Source of the DNA: a virus | IMG/VR virus record: IMGVR_UViG_3300009285_002342 | Coordinates: 51,126 to 115,125 of that record | DNA length: 64,000 bases | Direction: 5' to 3' (one strand) | Shown: piece after piece, positions 59,520-64,000 of the stretch | Layout of the letters: the number at the start of each line of letters is the position of its first letter | Position numbering within the stretch: the first letter of the stretch is position 1 | Position numbers and translations under genes: made by a program | Notes under the pieces: generated by a model | What the model was told of the DNA's origin: nothing | The model's database searches: none | What the model saw: the letters and a program-made list of their open reading frames with translations, nothing else

Positions 59520-60671
59520 ATGAGAAAGACATTCAAATACAAGGTAAAGATCAATGAAAAAACAGAGGCAAATTGTCTTGATTGGTTAGATAAATGCCGT
59601 ACTCTTTACAATCTTTGTCTTGAACAACGTATAATTTATTGGAATCAATGGAAGAAAAATATTTCTTATTACGAGCAAAAAAGAGAACTCCCGTTTTTTA
59701 AAAAGGAATTTCCAGAATATAAAAATATAAGTGCGCAAACTCTTCAAAGCGTTATAGAAAGATTAGATAAAACGTATCAAAATTTTTTTCGCAAAATCAA
59801 AAAAAGCGAAAAAACAGGTTTCCCAAGATTTAAAGGTAAAGATAGATATGATTCTTTTATATTACAACAAACTGGTTGGAAATTAGAAGGTAGATATCTT
59901 TATATTAAAAATGTTGGAAGGTTTAAACTTTTTCTTTCTAGACCGATTGAGGGAAAAATAAAGACCGTTACAATAAAGAAAACAAATACAAATCAATGGT
60001 TTGTTAGTTTTTCTTGCGATGAAGTTGTTCCAAATCATTTTTGGAAACCTAAAAAAGAAGATGTGGGAATTGATGTAGGCTTAAAAGTCTTTTTAGCTGA
60101 TTCCGAAGGAAATAAAGTTAAAAATCCTAGATTTTTTAAAAAATCAGAAAGGGAATTAAGAGTAAAACAAAGATCATTAAGCAGGAAAAAGAAAGGTTCT
60201 ATTCGAAGGCGAAAAAACAGGTTATCAGTAGCAAAAACTCATGAAAAAATATCTAATCAAAGAATCGATTTTGTCAATAAATTAGTCTTTGATTATGTCT
60301 CAAGGTATAAAAATATTTTTATAGAAGATCTAAATATCAAGAAGATGGTTTCCGAAAAACAATTCAGTAAGTCAATTTCTGATGTTTCTTGGGGTTTATT
60401 TTTTAATAAGTTACAAGTCAAAGCGGCAGAAGCTGGACGTGTAGTTATTAAAGTTAATCCTAAGAATACAAGTCAAAGATGTTCAAGTTGCGACTGTATC
60501 GTACCGAAAGATTTATCCGTAAGGATACATAAATGTGATTGCGGTTTGGTTTTGGACAGAGACGTTAATGCCGCAATCAATATATTGAAGTTAGGTCGGG
60601 CAGACCTATCGGGCGTTAAGTCGGCGGGTACGTCGATTAGCCCGAAGATATCCAGATTCACTAGAGGATAA
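59520..60671 (+). mobile_element. tnpB: IS200/IS605-family TnpB RNA-guided nuclease, no TnpA
   Basis: GFPRFK, GIDVG, IEDL, TSQRCSSC, DRDVNAAINI; RuvC D/E/D intact. Confidence 0.93.
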
Positions 60672-60752: not shown

Positions 60753-61055
60753 TCAACCCAAAGCCTTCTCCAACTGCTCGATTTCAGATTCCAAACTCCT
60801 CCGTTTCTCATCCGGTGTAGCGATAGCCTCTCTCCGTGCCTTCGCGGTTTTCAGCCTTCGCTGCAATTCGACTCGGTTCCGTTTCGTGATTTCCGCCGAA
60901 ACCAACGACAGCTTATCGATCACCCAATCGGGCGTTTGGATACTGATCGCCTGGCATTCCGCATCAATAGCTTTAAGGTTAATCTTCGCCAGAATCAAAT
61001 CCTCCATAATGTCCACGTCTTCCGTTAAAAGTGATTTCAACTGTTTTGCGTTCAT
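60753..61055 (-). CDS. Coiled-coil protein in the Ro60 operon
   Basis: P.W motif and LK.AKARREA..T.DEKR heptads. Confidence 0.6.
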   Translation of the reverse strand: MNAKQLKSLLTEDVDIMEDLILAKINLKAIDAECQAISIQTPDWVIDKLSLVSAEITKRNRVELQRRLKTAKARREAIATPDEKRRSLESEIEQLEKALG

Positions 61056-61456: not shown

Positions 61457-62995
61457 TTATTCCCGCTTCCGTAGTATCTCCTCTATGGTTAGAAGTTTCG
61501 TAGCCATAATTTCATCAAGCAGTGTGAAGCGAGAAGTTCTCATCGTCTTAACTAAATTCGGCAGCGCATAATAATCCATCCGCGAAACATCTCTCTTTTC
61601 GAACGGAATATTTGCCTTAATGCACCTTTCAGAAAATACATCCGTTTCACCGGGAACCCAATAATGATAAACCGTAGGTTCTACGCCGAATTTTGCGGAA
61701 TATTTTCGGTAGACATCGGAAAAAAACGGGAAATCATTTTCACCGCCATCCGAACATACCGCAATTCCGTTTACGATGATTCCCTTTTCGGCAATCAGGT
61801 CTAAACCGCAACCGATATTCGTTCCGCCGGAAGCGTTAATTCTTCGCGTTTCATTTTTGATTTCCTCTAACGTCTTCCCGGTAACGTCATACGCCAGAGG
61901 TTCGTTATTAAAGAATACAAGATAAATTTTACCTTTAACTTGTTGTGCAATCAGGGCTGCGATATTTTTGGCTAATTCTACCGACCGTTCCATAGATCCG
62001 GATCGATCCCCTAGCACCAACCAATCCCCTTCGATACCGCCTAACTGTTCTAATTTTTCTTCCTGTACCCTTTGCATTTTTTGCGCAACTTTAACGCTTA
62101 CCTTTTCCGCAGCCTTTCCGGTCTTTAAGGTAGAAACCTTTTTATCAGCGGCCACCTTCCGAAGCGCAGCATCATAACCGGATTTCAAAATCGGATTATC
62201 CATTACCCCCATTCTCTCGAAAGCAGCGGTATTCGTTAAAACTTCATTTCCGCTCATTCTTTCGAGTAGCGCAAGAATAATATCCGGTTTATCTTTTATT
62301 CCGCCTACGGCACCTACAGCGATAAGAAACGGAATTTTATGATTCAGGATCGTTCCGGCAGCTTCCGTAGGATTCATATTTCGCAAATTTTTAATCGCTT
62401 CGAAAACAGATCCGTTCGGATATTCGTTTTCGAAAAGGATTTTTTGTGCGAAAGGCGCAGGTCTAACGTGAAACTTAGCATAAAGTTCCTTTAATGCTTT
62501 TCGATGTTGTACTGCCGTCTTATTCCACCATCTCCTGTTTTCTTCCATTGCCCGAAGGTATCTTTCGCCGGCCGAATACAGTAAAGCGCGGGAAGCCTTA
62601 GCGGGATGAGAAACGGAAACGTTAACCTTCGCTTTTTTCTTAACGGTTTTTCCTTTAACGGAAGTCTTTTGGAAAATTTCTAATTCGCCTTTGGCTAAAC
62701 CTTGCGAAAATTTAAGAGCCTTCGTAAAGGAGATAGGGTCTAAAGAAATGATATGCGCGATTGCGTTTTCGTGTAACTCCAGATCCCATTCCCCTCTTAA
62801 CGCTAAGACAGGAAATGCAATTTTCGAATCGCGAATTTCACCCTTCTTTGCATTCCAGGCGATAAGATGAGCGAAAATTTCCGGCTCTTCCATTGCTGCT
62901 CTTAAACCGGTTTTCGCATAGACGGAAAGATCGCCGTGCCCGATGGAGATTAAAGATTGGATAAGCTGTTGCTTGGAGATAGTCGATTTTTCCAT
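61457..62995 (-). CDS. Ro60/TROVE-like protein with C-terminal vWA domain
   Basis: Helical N-terminal region (EP.IFAHL..W....GEIRD) plus MIDAS DRSGSM, GGT, SDGGEN; lies directly downstream of Y-like RNAs. Confidence 0.75.
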   Translation of the reverse strand: MEKSTISKQQLIQSLISIGHGDLSVYAKTGLRAAMEEPEIFAHLIAWNAKKGEIRDSKIAFPVLALRGEWDLELHENAIAHIISLDPISFTKALKFSQGLAKGELEIFQKTSVKGKTVKKKAKVNVSVSHPAKASRALLYSAGERYLRAMEENRRWWNKTAVQHRKALKELYAKFHVRPAPFAQKILFENEYPNGSVFEAIKNLRNMNPTEAAGTILNHKIPFLIAVGAVGGIKDKPDIILALLERMSGNEVLTNTAAFERMGVMDNPILKSGYDAALRKVAADKKVSTLKTGKAAEKVSVKVAQKMQRVQEEKLEQLGGIEGDWLVLGDRSGSMERSVELAKNIAALIAQQVKGKIYLVFFNNEPLAYDVTGKTLEEIKNETRRINASGGTNIGCGLDLIAEKGIIVNGIAVCSDGGENDFPFFSDVYRKYSAKFGVEPTVYHYWVPGETDVFSERCIKANIPFEKRDVSRMDYYALPNLVKTMRTSRFTLLDEIMATKLLTIEEILRKRE

Positions 62996-63026
62996 TTTAA
63001 TCTGTTCTCCTTTCTAAAAGTTTAAA

Positions 63027-63103
63027 TGGCAGGCCATGAAGGATTCGAACCTCCAACCTACGGAATCAAAGTCCGATGCTCTACCGGATTGAGCTAATGG
63101 CCT
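63027..63103 (-). tRNA. tRNA-Gln(TTG)
   Basis: Full cloverleaf, anticodon loop CTTTGAT, encoded CCA. Confidence 0.92.
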
Positions 63104-63109
63104 AAAAAG

Positions 63110-63195
63110 TGGTGGGCGGGGAAGGAGTTGAACCTTCGTTGTTTCCCCGTCACGGATTTACAGTCCGCTGCAATCGCCACTATGCGCACCCGCCC
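63110..63195 (-). tRNA. tRNA-Tyr(GTA)
   Basis: Loop CTGTAAA, long variable arm, encoded CCA. Confidence 0.92.
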
Positions 63196-63210
63196 GTTAA
63201 AAACAAAAAA

Positions 63211-63276
63211 TCGGGATAAGTCACCTGAGCATTAATTGTATTTCCAATATACATGTAGGCTCAAGCAGTATCCCGA
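63211..63276 (-). ncRNA. Minimal Y-like RNA (conserved stem, no tRNA domain)
   Basis: TCGGGATA..TGAGC-CTACATG-[GTAT hairpin]-TTAAT-GCTCA-GGTGACT-TATCCCGA. Confidence 0.7.
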
Positions 63277-63291
63277 TTTTTTAAAAGTTTT

Positions 63292-63434
63292 TTGGGGATG
63301 AGTCAAAAGCGCTAACTTTTTCTGTGCTCTAACCGGGCTGAGCTACCGCTGTCATTTTTTATTGGGACAGCGGGAAGGATTTGAACCTTCGACCCCAGGC
63401 TCCTATAGCATGTATGCGCTTTAGGTATCCCCAA
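63292..63434 (-). ncRNA. YrlA-type RNA (permuted T-arm / closed acceptor / D-arm on the conserved stem)
   Basis: GGGGAT..AAAGCGC-ATACATG..GAAGG TTCAAAT CCTTC, CCGCTGTC-loop-GACAGCGG, TA GCTC..GAGC..GCGCTTT-TGACTC-ATCCCC. Confidence 0.85.
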
Positions 63435-63437
63435 AAT

Positions 63438-63545
63438 TGGGTTGGGCCGGGTAGGATTGATTACCTGCACGATAGCCTTTATTTGAGGCCGATGCTGCAA
63501 CGCTCTGCGTCCGCTGAATCCTCGTCTTGACTACGCCCCGGCCCA
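63438..63545 (-). ncRNA. Unclassified tRNA-like structured RNA
   Basis: 8-bp terminal stem TGGGCCGG/CCGGCCCA + ACCCA tail, degenerate T-arm GCAGG-TAATCAAT-CCTAC, no canonical anticodon arm. Confidence 0.55.
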
Positions 63546-63553
63546 TAAACGAT

Positions 63554-63700
63554 TACGGGAATAAGTTAATCAGGCTTAATGTTTTACATAATACTGATTT
63601 CAAGTCAGTCGCCTTTAGCCACTAGGCAATATTCCCCGAAGGAAATAGAAGGAATCGAACCTTCGATTATTTGCATGTATGCCCGAAAGGTATTCCCGTA
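63554..63700 (-). ncRNA. Y-like RNA carrying a circularly permuted tRNA-Ser(TGA) opened in the variable arm
   Basis: T-arm GAAGG TTCGATT CCTTC; acceptor TATTTCC-TTCG-GGGAATA; D-arm GCCT..AGGC; anticodon arm ACTGA CTTGAAA TCAGT; all inside the TACGGGAATA/TATTCCCGTA stem. Confidence 0.85.
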
Positions 63701-63708
63701 AAATTCGG

Positions 63709-63835
63709 TATCGGCAGTGAGTCGGAAGCGGTTATTGGATTTGCTTGCTGGATTTGAACCAGCGACACACGGTTTATGAGACCGATGCTCAACCAACTGA
63801 GCTAAAGCATGTATCCGCTACCATTACCGCCGATA
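63709..63835 (-). ncRNA. Y-like RNA carrying an unpermuted tRNA(CAT) whose acceptor stem continues into the conserved stem
   Basis: TATCGGCGGT..AGCGG-ATACA-TGCTT TA GCTC..GAGC A TCGGT CTCATAA ACCGT..GCTGG TTCAAAT CCAGC AAGCA..TAA CCGCT..GACTC ACTGCCGATA; no free CCA end. Confidence 0.82.
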
Positions 63836-63868
63836 TTTTTTAAAAGAGCGTTTGATTTTTCTTGACTG

Positions 63869-63897
63869 ATTATATCCAAAAAATTCAGATTTTTAAA
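63869..63897 (-). promoter_or_regulatory. Promoter for the RNA cluster, TTTAAA-17-TATAAT
   Basis: Lies about 30 nt upstream of the first Y-like RNA. Confidence 0.55.
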
Positions 63898-64000
63898 GAA
63901 AAAAATAAAAATTTTTTGACCCTAATTTTAAGGGGTAGCGAAATGTCCTATAAAATCAAGGGGTAACGTCGATATAAAAATAGGGACGTATGCGCAAGGC

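What the first reader, a model, noticed from the sequence alone, without database searches (positions are those of the whole stretch)
63709..63835. tRNA(CAU) cloverleaf caged inside a Y-like stem
Seen: normal-order D, anticodon (CAT) and T arms, but only a 5-bp acceptor (TGCTT/AAGCA). This runs into the conserved ATACATG junction and the long closing stem. An ATCCA follows 1 nt after the acceptor 3' strand. tRNA finders would probably call it Met/Ile2 or a pseudo-tRNA. Inference: a Met/Ile2 anticodon decoy, or a tRNA reserve released by processing.
Basis: partly seen in the sequence, partly recalled or inferred. Interest (0 to 1): 0.7.

Follow-up and report, generated by a model that had tools for sequence, protein, structure and literature searches.

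The report
Phage Y RNA carrying a whole tRNA
This is a real small-RNA gene in a groundwater phage: an almost complete tRNA (anticodon CAU, built-in CCA) held inside a conserved two-helix "handle" that nearly always lies just upstream of a hidden relative of the RNA-binding ring protein Ro60, so it is most likely a new kind of Y RNA and not an ordinary tRNA gene.

Summary
A tRNA(CAU) cloverleaf has a 5-bp acceptor (UGCUU/AAGCA), mismatched 1-72 and 2-71, and an encoded UCCA. It sits inside two closing helices separated by a UAA/ACUCA internal loop and joined through AUACAUG.

The gene 714 nt downstream (61457-62995, minus strand) has no TROVE hit. Its predicted structure matches Ro60/Rsr over its full length.

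In 107 distinct related phage loci the same handle recurs on the gene's strand. A covariance model finds 90 distinct tRNA-in-handle RNAs. They occur in 56 of the 67 loci that have enough upstream DNA, at a median of 725 nt upstream. Both handle helices covary strongly.

Anticodon-loop shape is conserved in these RNAs, but positions 34-36 are near random. CAU is therefore not a conserved identity. CCA sits at exactly positions 74-76 in 23 of the 48 members that have an open acceptor.

Best reading: a Ro60-partner Y RNA of an undescribed subfamily that displays a full tRNA mimic. RNase P nicking or release of the tRNA is not excluded. Binding, processing and charging were not tested.

This scan has reported similar handle-tagged tRNA-mimic arrays beside Ro60-like genes on other DNA (for example e1-5618276, e1-5935525).

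The parts
63827..63835 (-). Handle stem 1, 5' strand (UAUCGGCGG)
   Evidence: Pairs with 63709-63717. The helix covaries in relatives: 7 of 7 pairs have changes on both sides, and 94.6% of cells are paired. On the unfitted MAFFT alignment 71.6% are paired.
63824..63826 (-). 5' side of the handle internal loop (UAA; family consensus YAC), followed by a U that forms the conserved U.G closing pair
   Evidence: Most common 5' loops are TAC and CAC. U.G is the commonest pair at this column, 40 of 90.
63815..63823 (-). Handle stem 2, 5' strand (UGGUAGCGG), 9 positions
   Evidence: Pairs with 63723-63731. RNAalifold recovers this helix from a plain MAFFT alignment. 9 of 9 pairs have changes on both sides.
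63808..63814 (-). Conserved junction motif AUACAUG. Its last UG opens the acceptor helix.
   Evidence: [ACT]TACATG occurs 375 times on the gene strand and 116 times on the other strand, where chance gives about 127, in 692 kb of related loci. It is invariant in alignment A2.
63736..63811 (-). tRNA-like module, 76 nt. It has a 5-bp acceptor (63805-63809 with 63742-63746), C1.A72 and A2.A71 mismatches, a D arm, an anticodon arm (anticodon CAU at 63776-63778), a 5-nt variable region, a T arm, and U73-CCA (63736-63739).
   Evidence: ARAGORN calls tRNA-Met. Rfam tRNA gives 52.8 bits on model positions 3-68. Coordinates were checked by script.
63732..63735 (-). A/U-rich linker (AUAA) between CCA and the handle
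   Evidence: Read directly. Relatives have A-rich linkers of 2-10 nt at this place.
63723..63731 (-). Handle stem 2, 3' strand (CCGCUUCCG)
63718..63722 (-). 3' side of the handle internal loop (ACUCA; family consensus ACUY after a G)
   Evidence: ACTT and ACTC are the commonest 3' loops.
63709..63717 (-). Handle stem 1, 3' strand (CUGCCGAUA)
63869..63897 (-). Sigma-70-like promoter (TTTAAA, 17-nt spacer, TATAAT) about 30 nt upstream of the handle. It is a candidate start of the RNA/Ro60 operon.
   Evidence: Consensus scan, 10 of 12 matches. This is a pattern match only.
63211..63700 (-). Three further RNAs on the same handle (AUACAUG/CUACAUG at 63674-63680, 63409-63415 and 63252-63258) with other payloads: a permuted tRNA-like module, a YrlA-like module and a short hairpin. 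One handle-less tRNA-like RNA lies at 63438-63545.
   Evidence: Rfam YrlA scores 36.5 bits at 63303-63422, and Rfam tRNA scores 37.5 bits at 63556-63636.
63027..63195 (-). Ordinary tRNA-Tyr(GUA) and tRNA-Gln(UUG) genes with 7-bp acceptors, encoded CCA and no handle
   Evidence: Model R1 gives only 50.8 bits here.
61457..62995 (-). Gene for a 512-aa divergent Ro60/Rsr-like protein (helical ring plus vWA domain with a DxSxS MIDAS motif), 714 nt downstream of the element
   Evidence: AF2 model with pLDDT 85. Foldseek gives full-length matches to Ro60 of Thermus phage phiLo, Xenopus, human and D. radiodurans (E 3e-10 to 2e-7, TM about 0.6). phrog_850 'RNA-binding protein' scores 9e-5. D330, S332 and S334 are invariant.

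Best explanation
The element is one gene of a phage operon of Ro60-partner small RNAs (Y RNAs) of an undescribed subfamily.

Its two closing helices, the YAC/ACUY internal loop with a U.G pair, and the AUACAUG junction form a conserved 'handle'. The handle most likely docks onto the phage's divergent Ro60 ring protein, which is encoded just downstream. Docking is inferred and was not tested.

Where other Y RNAs carry their variable module, this one displays a nearly complete tRNA joined through its acceptor end. The module has D, anticodon and T arms in normal order, an anticodon loop of canonical shape, and an internal N73-CCA.

The RNA most likely acts as a tRNA-shaped adaptor or bait that brings a tRNA-recognising factor to Ro60, or keeps one away from real tRNAs. 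Candidate factors are RNase P, a nuclease or a modification enzyme. This step is inferred.

The CAU triplet is one draw from a freely varying position and not a conserved Met/Ile identity. The CCA stays at positions 74-76 in about half of the open-acceptor relatives. The acceptor end is therefore probably read by something. RNase P nicking at position +1, as shown for M. smegmatis YrlA, is the simplest candidate.
For: 1. Protein context. The next protein-coding gene downstream (61457-62995) folds as Ro60 over its full length, although Pfam TROVE and PDB sequence and profile searches see nothing.

2. Association. 62 of 67 distinct related loci with at least 1.5 kb of upstream DNA carry the handle on the gene's strand, and 56 carry at least one tRNA-in-handle RNA. 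The usual number is exactly one, at a median of 725 nt upstream. The window's copy is 714 nt upstream. The motif is enriched only on the gene strand, 375 against 116.

3. Handle structure.
- On a plain MAFFT alignment of 32 members, 87.3% of cells pair, against 61.3% in shuffles and 35-47% when partners are slid.
- On 90 distinct members aligned to the model, 93.7% pair, and all 16 handle pairs have changes on both sides.
- A handle's own 3' arm pairs at -19.4 kcal/mol on average, against -7.8 for foreign arms.

4. The handle is not a general tRNA flank. The same handle carries non-tRNA payloads, including short hairpins and permuted tRNA-like modules. Ordinary tRNAs in the same arrays lack it: they score at most 57 bits and match only locally, against 60-114 bits for members.

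5. The module is a mimic, not a decoder.
- 42 of 90 members replace the acceptor end by a GNRA- or UUCG-capped hairpin.
- Positions 34-36 are near random while U33, R37 and A38 are kept. A34 occurs in 28%.
- This copy has C1.A72, A2.A71 and U73.

6. Precedent. YrlA Y RNAs mimic tRNA, and M. smegmatis YrlA is cut by RNase P and receives CCA while still bound to Rsr. D. radiodurans Yrn1 has the T arm and an 'anticodon' arm in the opposite orientation to YrlA (PMC4201824).
Against: - There is no RNA-level or binding datum. No RNA run holds the locus, so transcription, ends and Ro60 binding are all inferred.
- The handle lacks the published Ro60-contact motifs, GGUCCGA and GNCGAAN0-1G.
- The tRNA module is very good. 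It scores 52.8 bits, has G18G19, U54U55C56, the G15-C48 Levitt pair and a canonical CUCAUAA loop, and carries UCCA in the right register.
- CCA at 74-76 recurs in 23 of 48 open-acceptor relatives. This is what one expects if a real tRNA 3' end is made.
- CAU is the commonest triplet among the CCA-bearing members, 4 of 23.
- The alignment behind one search was fitted to the model's structure, which favours pairing. The unfitted searches agree but are weaker for stem 1.
Confidence: 0.66

Rival explanations
1. It is a working tRNA gene (Met, or Ile2 after lysidine formation) stored in a processing stalk. The handle pairs leader with trailer. RNase P cuts at C1, and an endonuclease plus 3' exonucleases trim to the encoded CCA, possibly with help or gating from Ro60. 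This would release a chargeable 76-nt tRNA.
For: - ARAGORN and Rfam both call a tRNA.
- All the main tertiary-contact bases are present, and the anticodon loop is canonical.
- UCCA sits at positions 73-76.
- CCA is at exactly 74-76 in 23 of 48 open-acceptor relatives, with an A or G discriminator in 21, and occurs at most twice at any other offset.
- A/U-rich single-stranded linkers follow the CCA, as they do downstream of bacterial tRNAs.
- It is the only CAU tRNA call on the 115-kb contig.
- M. smegmatis YrlA is cut by RNase P in vivo (PMC4201824).
Against: - The acceptor has only 5 pairs, with C1.A72 and A2.A71. The discriminator is U73, whereas from general knowledge bacterial tRNA-Met and tRNA-Ile2 carry A73.
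- There is a U27.U43 mismatch.
- The first four acceptor positions are dictated by the handle motif, which is also conserved in non-tRNA members.
- Relatives on the same body carry any triplet, many of them implausible for decoding (28% A34, UGA on bodies without a long variable arm), or have no anticodon arm at all.
- 42 of 90 relatives have no acceptor end.
- The real tRNAs next door need no handle.
Confidence: 0.22
2. It is an anticodon-specific bait. The displayed CAU loop mimics tRNA-Met, fMet or Ile2 to soak up or mislead a host enzyme that attacks or modifies that tRNA, such as an anticodon nuclease or TilS. Relatives carry other triplets because their hosts carry other attackers.
For: - Anticodon-loop shape is conserved (U33 in 70 of 76, R37 in 70 of 76, A38 in 69 of 76) while positions 34-36 vary freely.
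- Two relatives with identical handles and 95% identical bodies differ at the anticodon (UGA against AAA) and at the adjoining stem pair.
- A preprint reports that a Ro60-like phage protein encoded next to tRNA genes counters a defence system (PMC11482910).
Against: - Free variation of the triplet is equally what neutral drift gives. Handle-stem sequences differ just as much, 0.60 against 0.68-0.71 differences per site.
- Some members have 4- to 6-nt or 8-nt loops, or no anticodon arm.
- No nuclease, host or target is known for this phage.
- The single closely related pair gives small numbers (4 changes in 17 nt against 4 in 66).
Confidence: 0.1
3. It is a decaying tRNA pseudogene whose flanks pair by chance.
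For: The top of the acceptor is mismatched, there is one U.U in the anticodon stem, and A21 is missing from the D loop.
Against: - The flanks pair better than all 200 shuffles and all 131 foreign arms.
- 90 distinct relatives keep the same architecture with compensatory changes.
- The element stands at a fixed position next to a conserved gene.
Confidence: 0.02

Closest known systems
YrlA-type bacterial and phage Y RNAs with Rsr/Ro60 (Rfam RF02553; Chen et al. 2014, PMC4201824)
   Same: A small RNA encoded just upstream of a Ro60 gene on the same strand. A terminal stem is formed by the 5' and 3' ends. The variable module mimics tRNA (D and T arms, acceptor-like stem). Several different Y RNAs occur per locus.
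   Different: YrlA is permuted (T arm, acceptor hairpin, D arm), has no anticodon arm, and the stem joins where the anticodon stem would be. Here the order is normal, the anticodon arm is complete, and the stem joins at the acceptor end, next to an internal NCCA. This element gives no RF02553 match at E <= 1. The GNCGAAN0-1G motif is absent. The handle motifs (YAC/ACUY loop, AUACAUG) are different.
M. smegmatis YrlA, cut by RNase P and given CCA while bound to Rsr (PMC4201824)
   Same: A Y RNA whose tRNA-like acceptor end is recognised by tRNA-processing enzymes. This suggests what the conserved CCA at 74-76 could be for.
   Different: In M. smegmatis the CCA is added after the cut, at a hairpin-derived end. 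Here NCCA is encoded and internal. Cleavage has not been tested.
Deinococcus radiodurans Yrn1 (PMC4201824)
   Same: According to the paper, its T arm and a possible 5-bp 'anticodon' arm lie in the opposite orientation to YrlA, so the Ro60-binding stem takes the acceptor position as it does here.
   Different: Yrn1 is a poor mimic, with no clear D arm, a 6-nt loop and no variable region, and it keeps the metazoan-type Ro60-binding helix. I had no Yrn1 sequence or model to compare directly.
Thermus phage phiLo Ro60 with Yrl1/Yrl2 (PMC12135203; PDB 9KOP, 9L5Y)
   Same: A phage-encoded divergent Ro60 with phage-encoded partner RNAs upstream of the gene. It is the best structural match of the window's protein.
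   Different: The phiLo RNAs were identified by a CGAA motif and are not described as complete tRNAs. The two proteins share only about 14% identity.
Phage Bas63 gp130 (PhageMaP preprint, PMC11482910)
   Same: A Ro60-like fold encoded next to genes annotated as tRNAs. The authors suggest that some of those 'tRNA genes' may be Y RNAs.
   Different: That is a suggestion without RNA analysis. tblastn with the window's protein finds no cultured phage, only one uncultured 595-kb phage, so the two proteins are not detectably related by sequence.
Ordinary phage tRNA genes and pre-tRNA leader-trailer pairing
   Same: A cloverleaf that tRNA finders call, with encoded CCA, inside a tRNA cluster.
   Different: There is a conserved covarying 18-bp handle with fixed motifs, a shortened and mismatched acceptor, and an unconstrained anticodon among relatives. 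Neighbouring true tRNAs lack the handle.

Membership tests
Y RNA (Ro60-partner non-coding RNA, general) | Encoded next to a Ro60 ortholog, on the same strand | tested here: met
   The gene 714 nt downstream folds as Ro60. 56 of 67 related loci carry a tRNA-in-handle RNA on the gene's strand.
Y RNA (Ro60-partner non-coding RNA, general) | A long stem formed by the 5' and 3' ends, interrupted by an internal loop or bulge, with a variable module at the far end | tested here: met
   Two helices of 9 positions each around a 3 x 5 nt loop, with covariation in all 16 handle pairs.
Y RNA (Ro60-partner non-coding RNA, general) | Published Ro60-contact motif on the 5' strand (GGUCCGA in animals and D. 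radiodurans; GNCGAAN0-1G in YrlA) | tested here: not met
   The 5' strand UAUCGGCGGUAAUGGUAGCGGAUACAUG contains neither motif. Other motifs are conserved instead.
Y RNA (Ro60-partner non-coding RNA, general) | Physical binding to Ro60 | not testable with these tools
   No RNA-protein predictor or RNA data were available. No RNA run is listed.
YrlA (Rfam RF02553) | Match to the family covariance model at the gathering score (69 bits) | tested here: not met
   This element gives no match at E <= 1. A neighbouring element (63303-63422) reaches 36.5 bits.
YrlA (Rfam RF02553) | Permuted order T arm, acceptor hairpin, D arm, with the Ro60 stem in place of the anticodon stem | tested here: not met
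   The order is D, anticodon, T, and the stem joins at the acceptor end.
Functional tRNA (Rfam RF00005; tRNA-Met or tRNA-Ile2) | Cloverleaf with conserved tertiary-contact bases, scoring above the family threshold | tested here: met
   52.8 bits against a gathering score of 29. ARAGORN calls tRNA-Met.
Functional tRNA (Rfam RF00005; tRNA-Met or tRNA-Ile2) | Seven-pair acceptor stem ending in N73-CCA at a free 3' end | tested here: not met
   There are 5 pairs plus C1.A72 and A2.A71. The Rfam match covers only model positions 3-68. UCCA is present but internal, followed by 35 more nt of the handle.
Functional tRNA (Rfam RF00005; tRNA-Met or tRNA-Ile2) | Anticodon kept among orthologs | tested here: not met
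   There are 34 triplets among 76 seven-nt loops. Pairs with at least 70% identical bodies share the triplet in 11 of 143 cases.
Functional tRNA (Rfam RF00005; tRNA-Met or tRNA-Ile2) | Processing to about 76 nt, aminoacylation, and lysidine or other anticodon modification | not testable with these tools
   This needs northern, acid-gel and modification mapping.
Ro60/Rsr (TROVE plus vWA) for the neighbouring protein | Ring of helical repeats followed by a vWA domain with a MIDAS motif | tested here: met
   Full-length Foldseek matches to 9kop, 9l5y, 1yvp, 2nvo and 9nen. DxSxS, T392 and D416 are invariant.
Ro60/Rsr (TROVE plus vWA) for the neighbouring protein | Match to Pfam TROVE (PF05731) | tested here: not met
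   No match in the whole contig or in the protein at E <= 0.01. A profile search against PDB finds only a vWA domain at E 0.067.

The most novel reading that the evidence does not exclude
Phages of this group use one Ro60 ring and a standard RNA handle to display interchangeable, complete tRNAs whose anticodons are free to change. Two uses are conceivable. The RNP could be a programmable tRNA bait that captures or misdirects host tRNA-targeting defence or processing enzymes. Alternatively it could be a caged tRNA whose release (RNase P cut plus Ro60-assisted 3' trimming to the conserved CCA) is switched on during infection. Either would be a new job for Ro60/Y RNA and a new way of regulating or protecting tRNA function.
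Probability: 0.25. Interest if true: 0.85.

Novelty: new variant of a known kind. Interest (0 to 1): 0.62.

Why it matters
What bacterial Ro60 and its tRNA-like Y RNAs do remains largely open. In this family the mimic is as complete as it can be: it has an anticodon arm and a positionally conserved CCA. It is tied to a Ro60 so divergent that sequence searches miss it. The family is large: 230 metagenome hits, 45 IMG/VR hits, and only 3 in 185,579 species genomes.

This gives a clean, testable system for three questions:
- What does the tRNA module recruit?
- Does RNase P or a CCA-reading enzyme act on Y RNAs?
- Do phages use Ro60 particles against tRNA-directed host defences?

There is also a practical consequence. 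tRNA finders count these RNAs as tRNA genes, including apparent suppressor tRNAs (UCA, UUA, CUA). That can mislead tRNA censuses and genetic-code inference in phage genomes.

Tried and rejected
- No RNA holder is listed for the locus. The only holders are four DNA runs of one groundwater study. Read laying was therefore not used, because DNA contigs cannot show RNA ends.
- blastn of the RNA region against GenBank phages gave only generic tRNA matches.
- tblastn of the Ro60-like protein found one uncultured 595-kb phage and no cultured phage.
- phmmer and profile searches against PDB sequences found no Ro60. Pfam TROVE found nothing. Only the fold comparison identified the protein.
- I guessed accession MZ501111 for phage Bas63. 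It is Bas51, and I dropped the comparison.
- Two review articles on bacterial Y RNAs (PMC10870794, PMC6047535) are not held.
- I tried to show that the anticodon evolves faster than the rest of the RNA and rejected the test as inconclusive. Most pairs are saturated, and handle-stem sequences differ as much as the triplet. Only 'unconstrained' can be claimed.
- Earlier notes of this scan link such handles to Dictyostelium Class I RNAs. I read the paper (PMC7919456), but it does not print the motif. By my recollection of it, only 'UACA' would be shared with AUACAUG. I leave this untested.
- My first duplex criterion was loose: 49 of 116 minus-strand motif sites also passed it. Counts of 'handles' from that criterion are upper bounds. 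The covariance-model counts are the ones I rely on.

Full report
**Where it is.** The window is the last 64 kb of a 115,125-bp linear IMG/VR phage contig, estimated 84% complete, from groundwater. All RNA genes at 63000-64000 lie on the minus strand. ARAGORN finds tRNA-Gln, tRNA-Tyr and a tRNA-Met(CAU) at 63736-63811. Rfam confirms the tRNA-Met at 52.8 bits but matches only model positions 3-68, so the top of the acceptor stem does not fit. Rfam also gives a sub-threshold YrlA (Y RNA-like) match of 36.5 bits at 63303-63422 and a weak tRNA match at 63556-63636.

**Checking the observation.** In 5' to 3' order on the minus strand:
- Stem 1: UAUCGGCGG (63835-63827).
- Internal loop, 5' side: UAA.
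- Stem 2: UGGUAGCGG (63823-63815).
- Junction: AUACAUG (63814-63808). Its last UG opens a 5-bp acceptor, UGCUU/AAGCA.
- tRNA body: U8 A9, D arm, anticodon arm with loop CUCAUAA, variable region GUGUC, T arm.
- 3' side: AAGCA, then AA, then U73-CCA (63739-63736).
- Linker AUAA, then stem 2' CCGCUUCCG, loop ACUCA, and stem 1' CUGCCGAUA (63717-63709).

Counted as a 7-position acceptor, positions 1-72 are C.A and 2-71 are A.A. The whole element folds at -44.6 kcal/mol against -31.0 +/- 3.5 for shuffles (z = -3.95). The cloverleaf-in-handle structure evaluates to -40.7 kcal/mol, against a minimum of -44.0 for the 127-nt element, and that minimum keeps both handle helices.

**The neighbouring gene.** The gene 714 nt downstream (61457-62995, minus strand, 512 aa) follows the two ordinary tRNA genes.
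- Sequence searches give little: a weak vWA hit and phrog_850 'RNA-binding protein' at 9e-5.
- Pfam TROVE finds nothing in the contig. PDB sequence and profile searches find no Ro60.
- An AlphaFold model built on 33 homologs (pLDDT 85) matches Ro60 over its full length. The matches are Thermus phage phiLo Ro60, Xenopus and human Ro60, and D. radiodurans Rsr (E 3e-10 to 2e-7, TM about 0.6).
- The vWA MIDAS residues (DxSxS, T, D) are invariant.

It is therefore a Ro60 relative that only structure reveals. Homologs are abundant in metagenomes (more than 560 protein clusters; 230 metagenome stretches; 45 IMG/VR stretches). They are almost absent from 185,579 species genomes, with 3 hits, all in metagenome-assembled genomes (MAGs).

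**The handle is a family feature.** In 126 fetched loci (107 distinct), the motif [A/C/U]UACAUG occurs 375 times on the gene's strand. It occurs 116 times on the other strand, where chance gives about 127. Each copy is preceded by a 9-position helix, a YAC loop and a further helix. After a payload of variable size, the complementary strands follow, separated by G-ACUY. A handle's own 3' arm pairs at -19.4 kcal/mol on average, against -7.8 for arms of other handles. For the window's element, none of 131 foreign arms does as well as its own.

Payloads differ:
- short hairpins;
- permuted tRNA-like modules, some YrlA-like;
- normal-order tRNAs like this one.

The window itself holds four handles, at 63835-63709, about 63700-63554, about 63436-63303 and 63276-63211.

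**The tRNA-in-handle class.** I aligned 32 normal-order members with MAFFT (alignment A2).
- Without any structural fitting, RNAalifold recovers stem 2 and the D, anticodon and T stems.
- My full structure pairs 87.3% of cells, against 61.3% in shuffles and 35-47% when partners are slid. Both handle helices covary.
- A covariance model built from this alignment (R1) finds 94 matches of 60-114 bits, 90 of them distinct and all on the gene strand. The window's element scores 100.3 bits at 63712-63832.
- Ordinary tRNAs reach at most 57 bits, and only locally.
- On the model-fitted alignment A4, 93.7% of cells pair, and all 16 handle pairs show changes on both sides. That alignment leans towards the structure, but searches do not.

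Of 67 distinct loci with at least 1.5 kb of upstream DNA, 56 carry at least one such RNA (41 carry exactly one). The median distance upstream of the start codon is 725 nt, and the window's copy is 714 nt upstream. In loci with long tRNA arrays only the elements nearest the gene carry a handle, so the handle is not a general tRNA flank.

**What is and is not conserved in the tRNA module.** Among 76 members with 7-nt anticodon loops:
- U33 (70 of 76), purine 37 (70 of 76) and A38 (69 of 76) are kept.
- Positions 34, 35 and 36 have entropies of 1.65, 1.99 and 1.90 bits.
- 34 different triplets occur. A34 is present in 28%, and stop-codon readers appear (UCA four times, UUA twice, CUA once).
- Only 4 of 76 are CAU.

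Fourteen further members have loops of other lengths or no anticodon arm. Pairs whose bodies are at least 70% identical share the triplet in 11 of 143 cases. This is not proof of accelerated change, because handle-stem sequences differ as much. It does show that the triplet is unconstrained.

The acceptor end splits the class in two:
- 42 members have 0-5 acceptor pairs followed by a GNRA- or UUCG-capped hairpin and can never be charged.
- 48 members, including the window's, have an open acceptor helix.

In the 48 open-acceptor members CCA stands at exactly positions 74-76 in 23 cases, and at any other offset in at most 2. The discriminator is A in 16, G in 5 and U in 2. In the window's copy the paired part has shrunk to 5 bp, but the 3' strand still places UCCA in register. 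The position of CCA relative to the T arm therefore seems to matter more than the pairing. This last point is my inference.

**How it most likely works.**
- Shown: the architecture, its covariation, its fixed association with a Ro60-fold gene, and the pattern of constraint.
- Inferred: the handle is the docking site for the phage Ro60, and the tRNA module is displayed as the variable effector end, as in other Y RNAs. In those, the stem binds Ro60 and the distal module binds a partner such as PNPase (PMC4201824; PMC12135203).

The conserved elbow, anticodon-loop shape and CCA register point to recognition by proteins or RNAs that read tRNA shape. RNase P is the simplest candidate, because M. 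smegmatis YrlA is cut by RNase P and carries CCA while bound to Rsr. A cut here would fall at 63811/63812 and leave a nicked particle held together by 18 handle pairs.

Release of a chargeable tRNA is possible for members with a full 7-bp acceptor. It is less likely for this copy, which has C1.A72, A2.A71 and U73. I put about 0.66 on the Y-RNA adaptor or bait reading, 0.22 on a releasable working tRNA, 0.10 on an anticodon-specific decoy and 0.02 on a pseudogene.

**Comparison with what is known.** The element works like a YrlA/Yrn1-type Y RNA but fails the YrlA membership tests:
- it gives no RF02553 match;
- its arms are in normal, not permuted, order;
- it lacks the GNCGAA motif.

D. radiodurans Yrn1 is described as having the opposite arm orientation to YrlA, with a possible anticodon arm. 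That makes it the nearest topological precedent, though it is a much poorer mimic.

A 2024 preprint noted a Ro60-like protein next to tRNA genes in phage Bas63. It suggested that some of those genes are Y RNAs and reported that the protein counters a defence system. That is a hypothesis, and it concerns a different protein family.

I found no paper or Rfam family describing this handle or a complete tRNA with anticodon and CCA inside a Y stem. This scan has reported comparable handle-tagged tRNA-mimic arrays beside Ro60-like genes on other DNA. I did not rely on those notes as evidence.

**Verdict.** I class the element as a new variant of a known kind (Y RNA with Ro60). The main gaps are experimental: transcription, RNA ends, Ro60 binding and charging are all untested.

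Noticed in passing
L113:808-936 and L117:2163-2291: These two tRNA-in-handle RNAs have identical handles and 95% identical bodies. They differ at the anticodon (UGA against AAA) and show a compensatory change in the adjoining stem pair. That is 4 changes in the 17-nt arm against 4 in about 66 nt elsewhere. This hints that the tip of the anticodon arm is a hot spot, but the numbers are small.
   Followed up: partly
Loci L014, L028, L096, L113 (UCA), L005, L064 (UUA), L049 (CUA); alignment A4: Handle-caged tRNA-like RNAs carry anticodons that would read stop codons, and 28% have A34. tRNA finders report them as suppressor or odd tRNAs (for example 'tRNA-Stop' and 'tRNA-SeC'). This could mislead genetic-code calls for these phages.
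   Followed up: partly
window 63438-63545 (minus strand): A further tRNA-like RNA lies between two handle RNAs. It has an 8-bp acceptor-like stem (GGGCCGGG/CCCGGCCC) followed by ACCCA, and has no AUACAUG handle. No tRNA finder or Rfam family calls it.
   Followed up: no
window 63554-63700 (minus strand): The neighbouring handle RNA carries a permuted tRNA-like module: T arm, then a UUCG-capped 7-bp acceptor hairpin, D arm, and an anticodon arm with loop CUUGAAA. Rfam tRNA gives 37.5 bits for part of it.
   Followed up: partly
window 59520-60671 (plus strand): A TnpB-like gene (OrfB_IS605 3.9e-26, Cas12f1-like TNB domain 4.8e-22) sits between the terminase genes and the Ro60-like operon of the phage.
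   Followed up: no
window 63869-63897 (minus strand): The best sigma-70-like promoter match of the region (TTTAAA, 17-nt spacer, TATAAT) lies about 30 nt upstream of the first handle. No terminator-like site separates the RNAs from the Ro60-like gene. This is consistent with a single operon.
   Followed up: partly
window 60753-61055 (minus strand): A 100-aa ORF downstream of the Ro60-like gene gives a weak sub-threshold hit to the protelomerase 'muzzle' domain (E 8.7e-4, 19.8 bits against a cut-off of 27). This is probably not meaningful.
   Followed up: no
window 61457-62995 and protein alignment A1: The Ro60-like family is seen by fold only, not by Pfam TROVE or by PDB sequence or profile searches. 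It has 230 metagenome and 45 IMG/VR stretches but only 3 hits among 185,579 species genomes, so it appears to be essentially phage-borne.
   Followed up: yes
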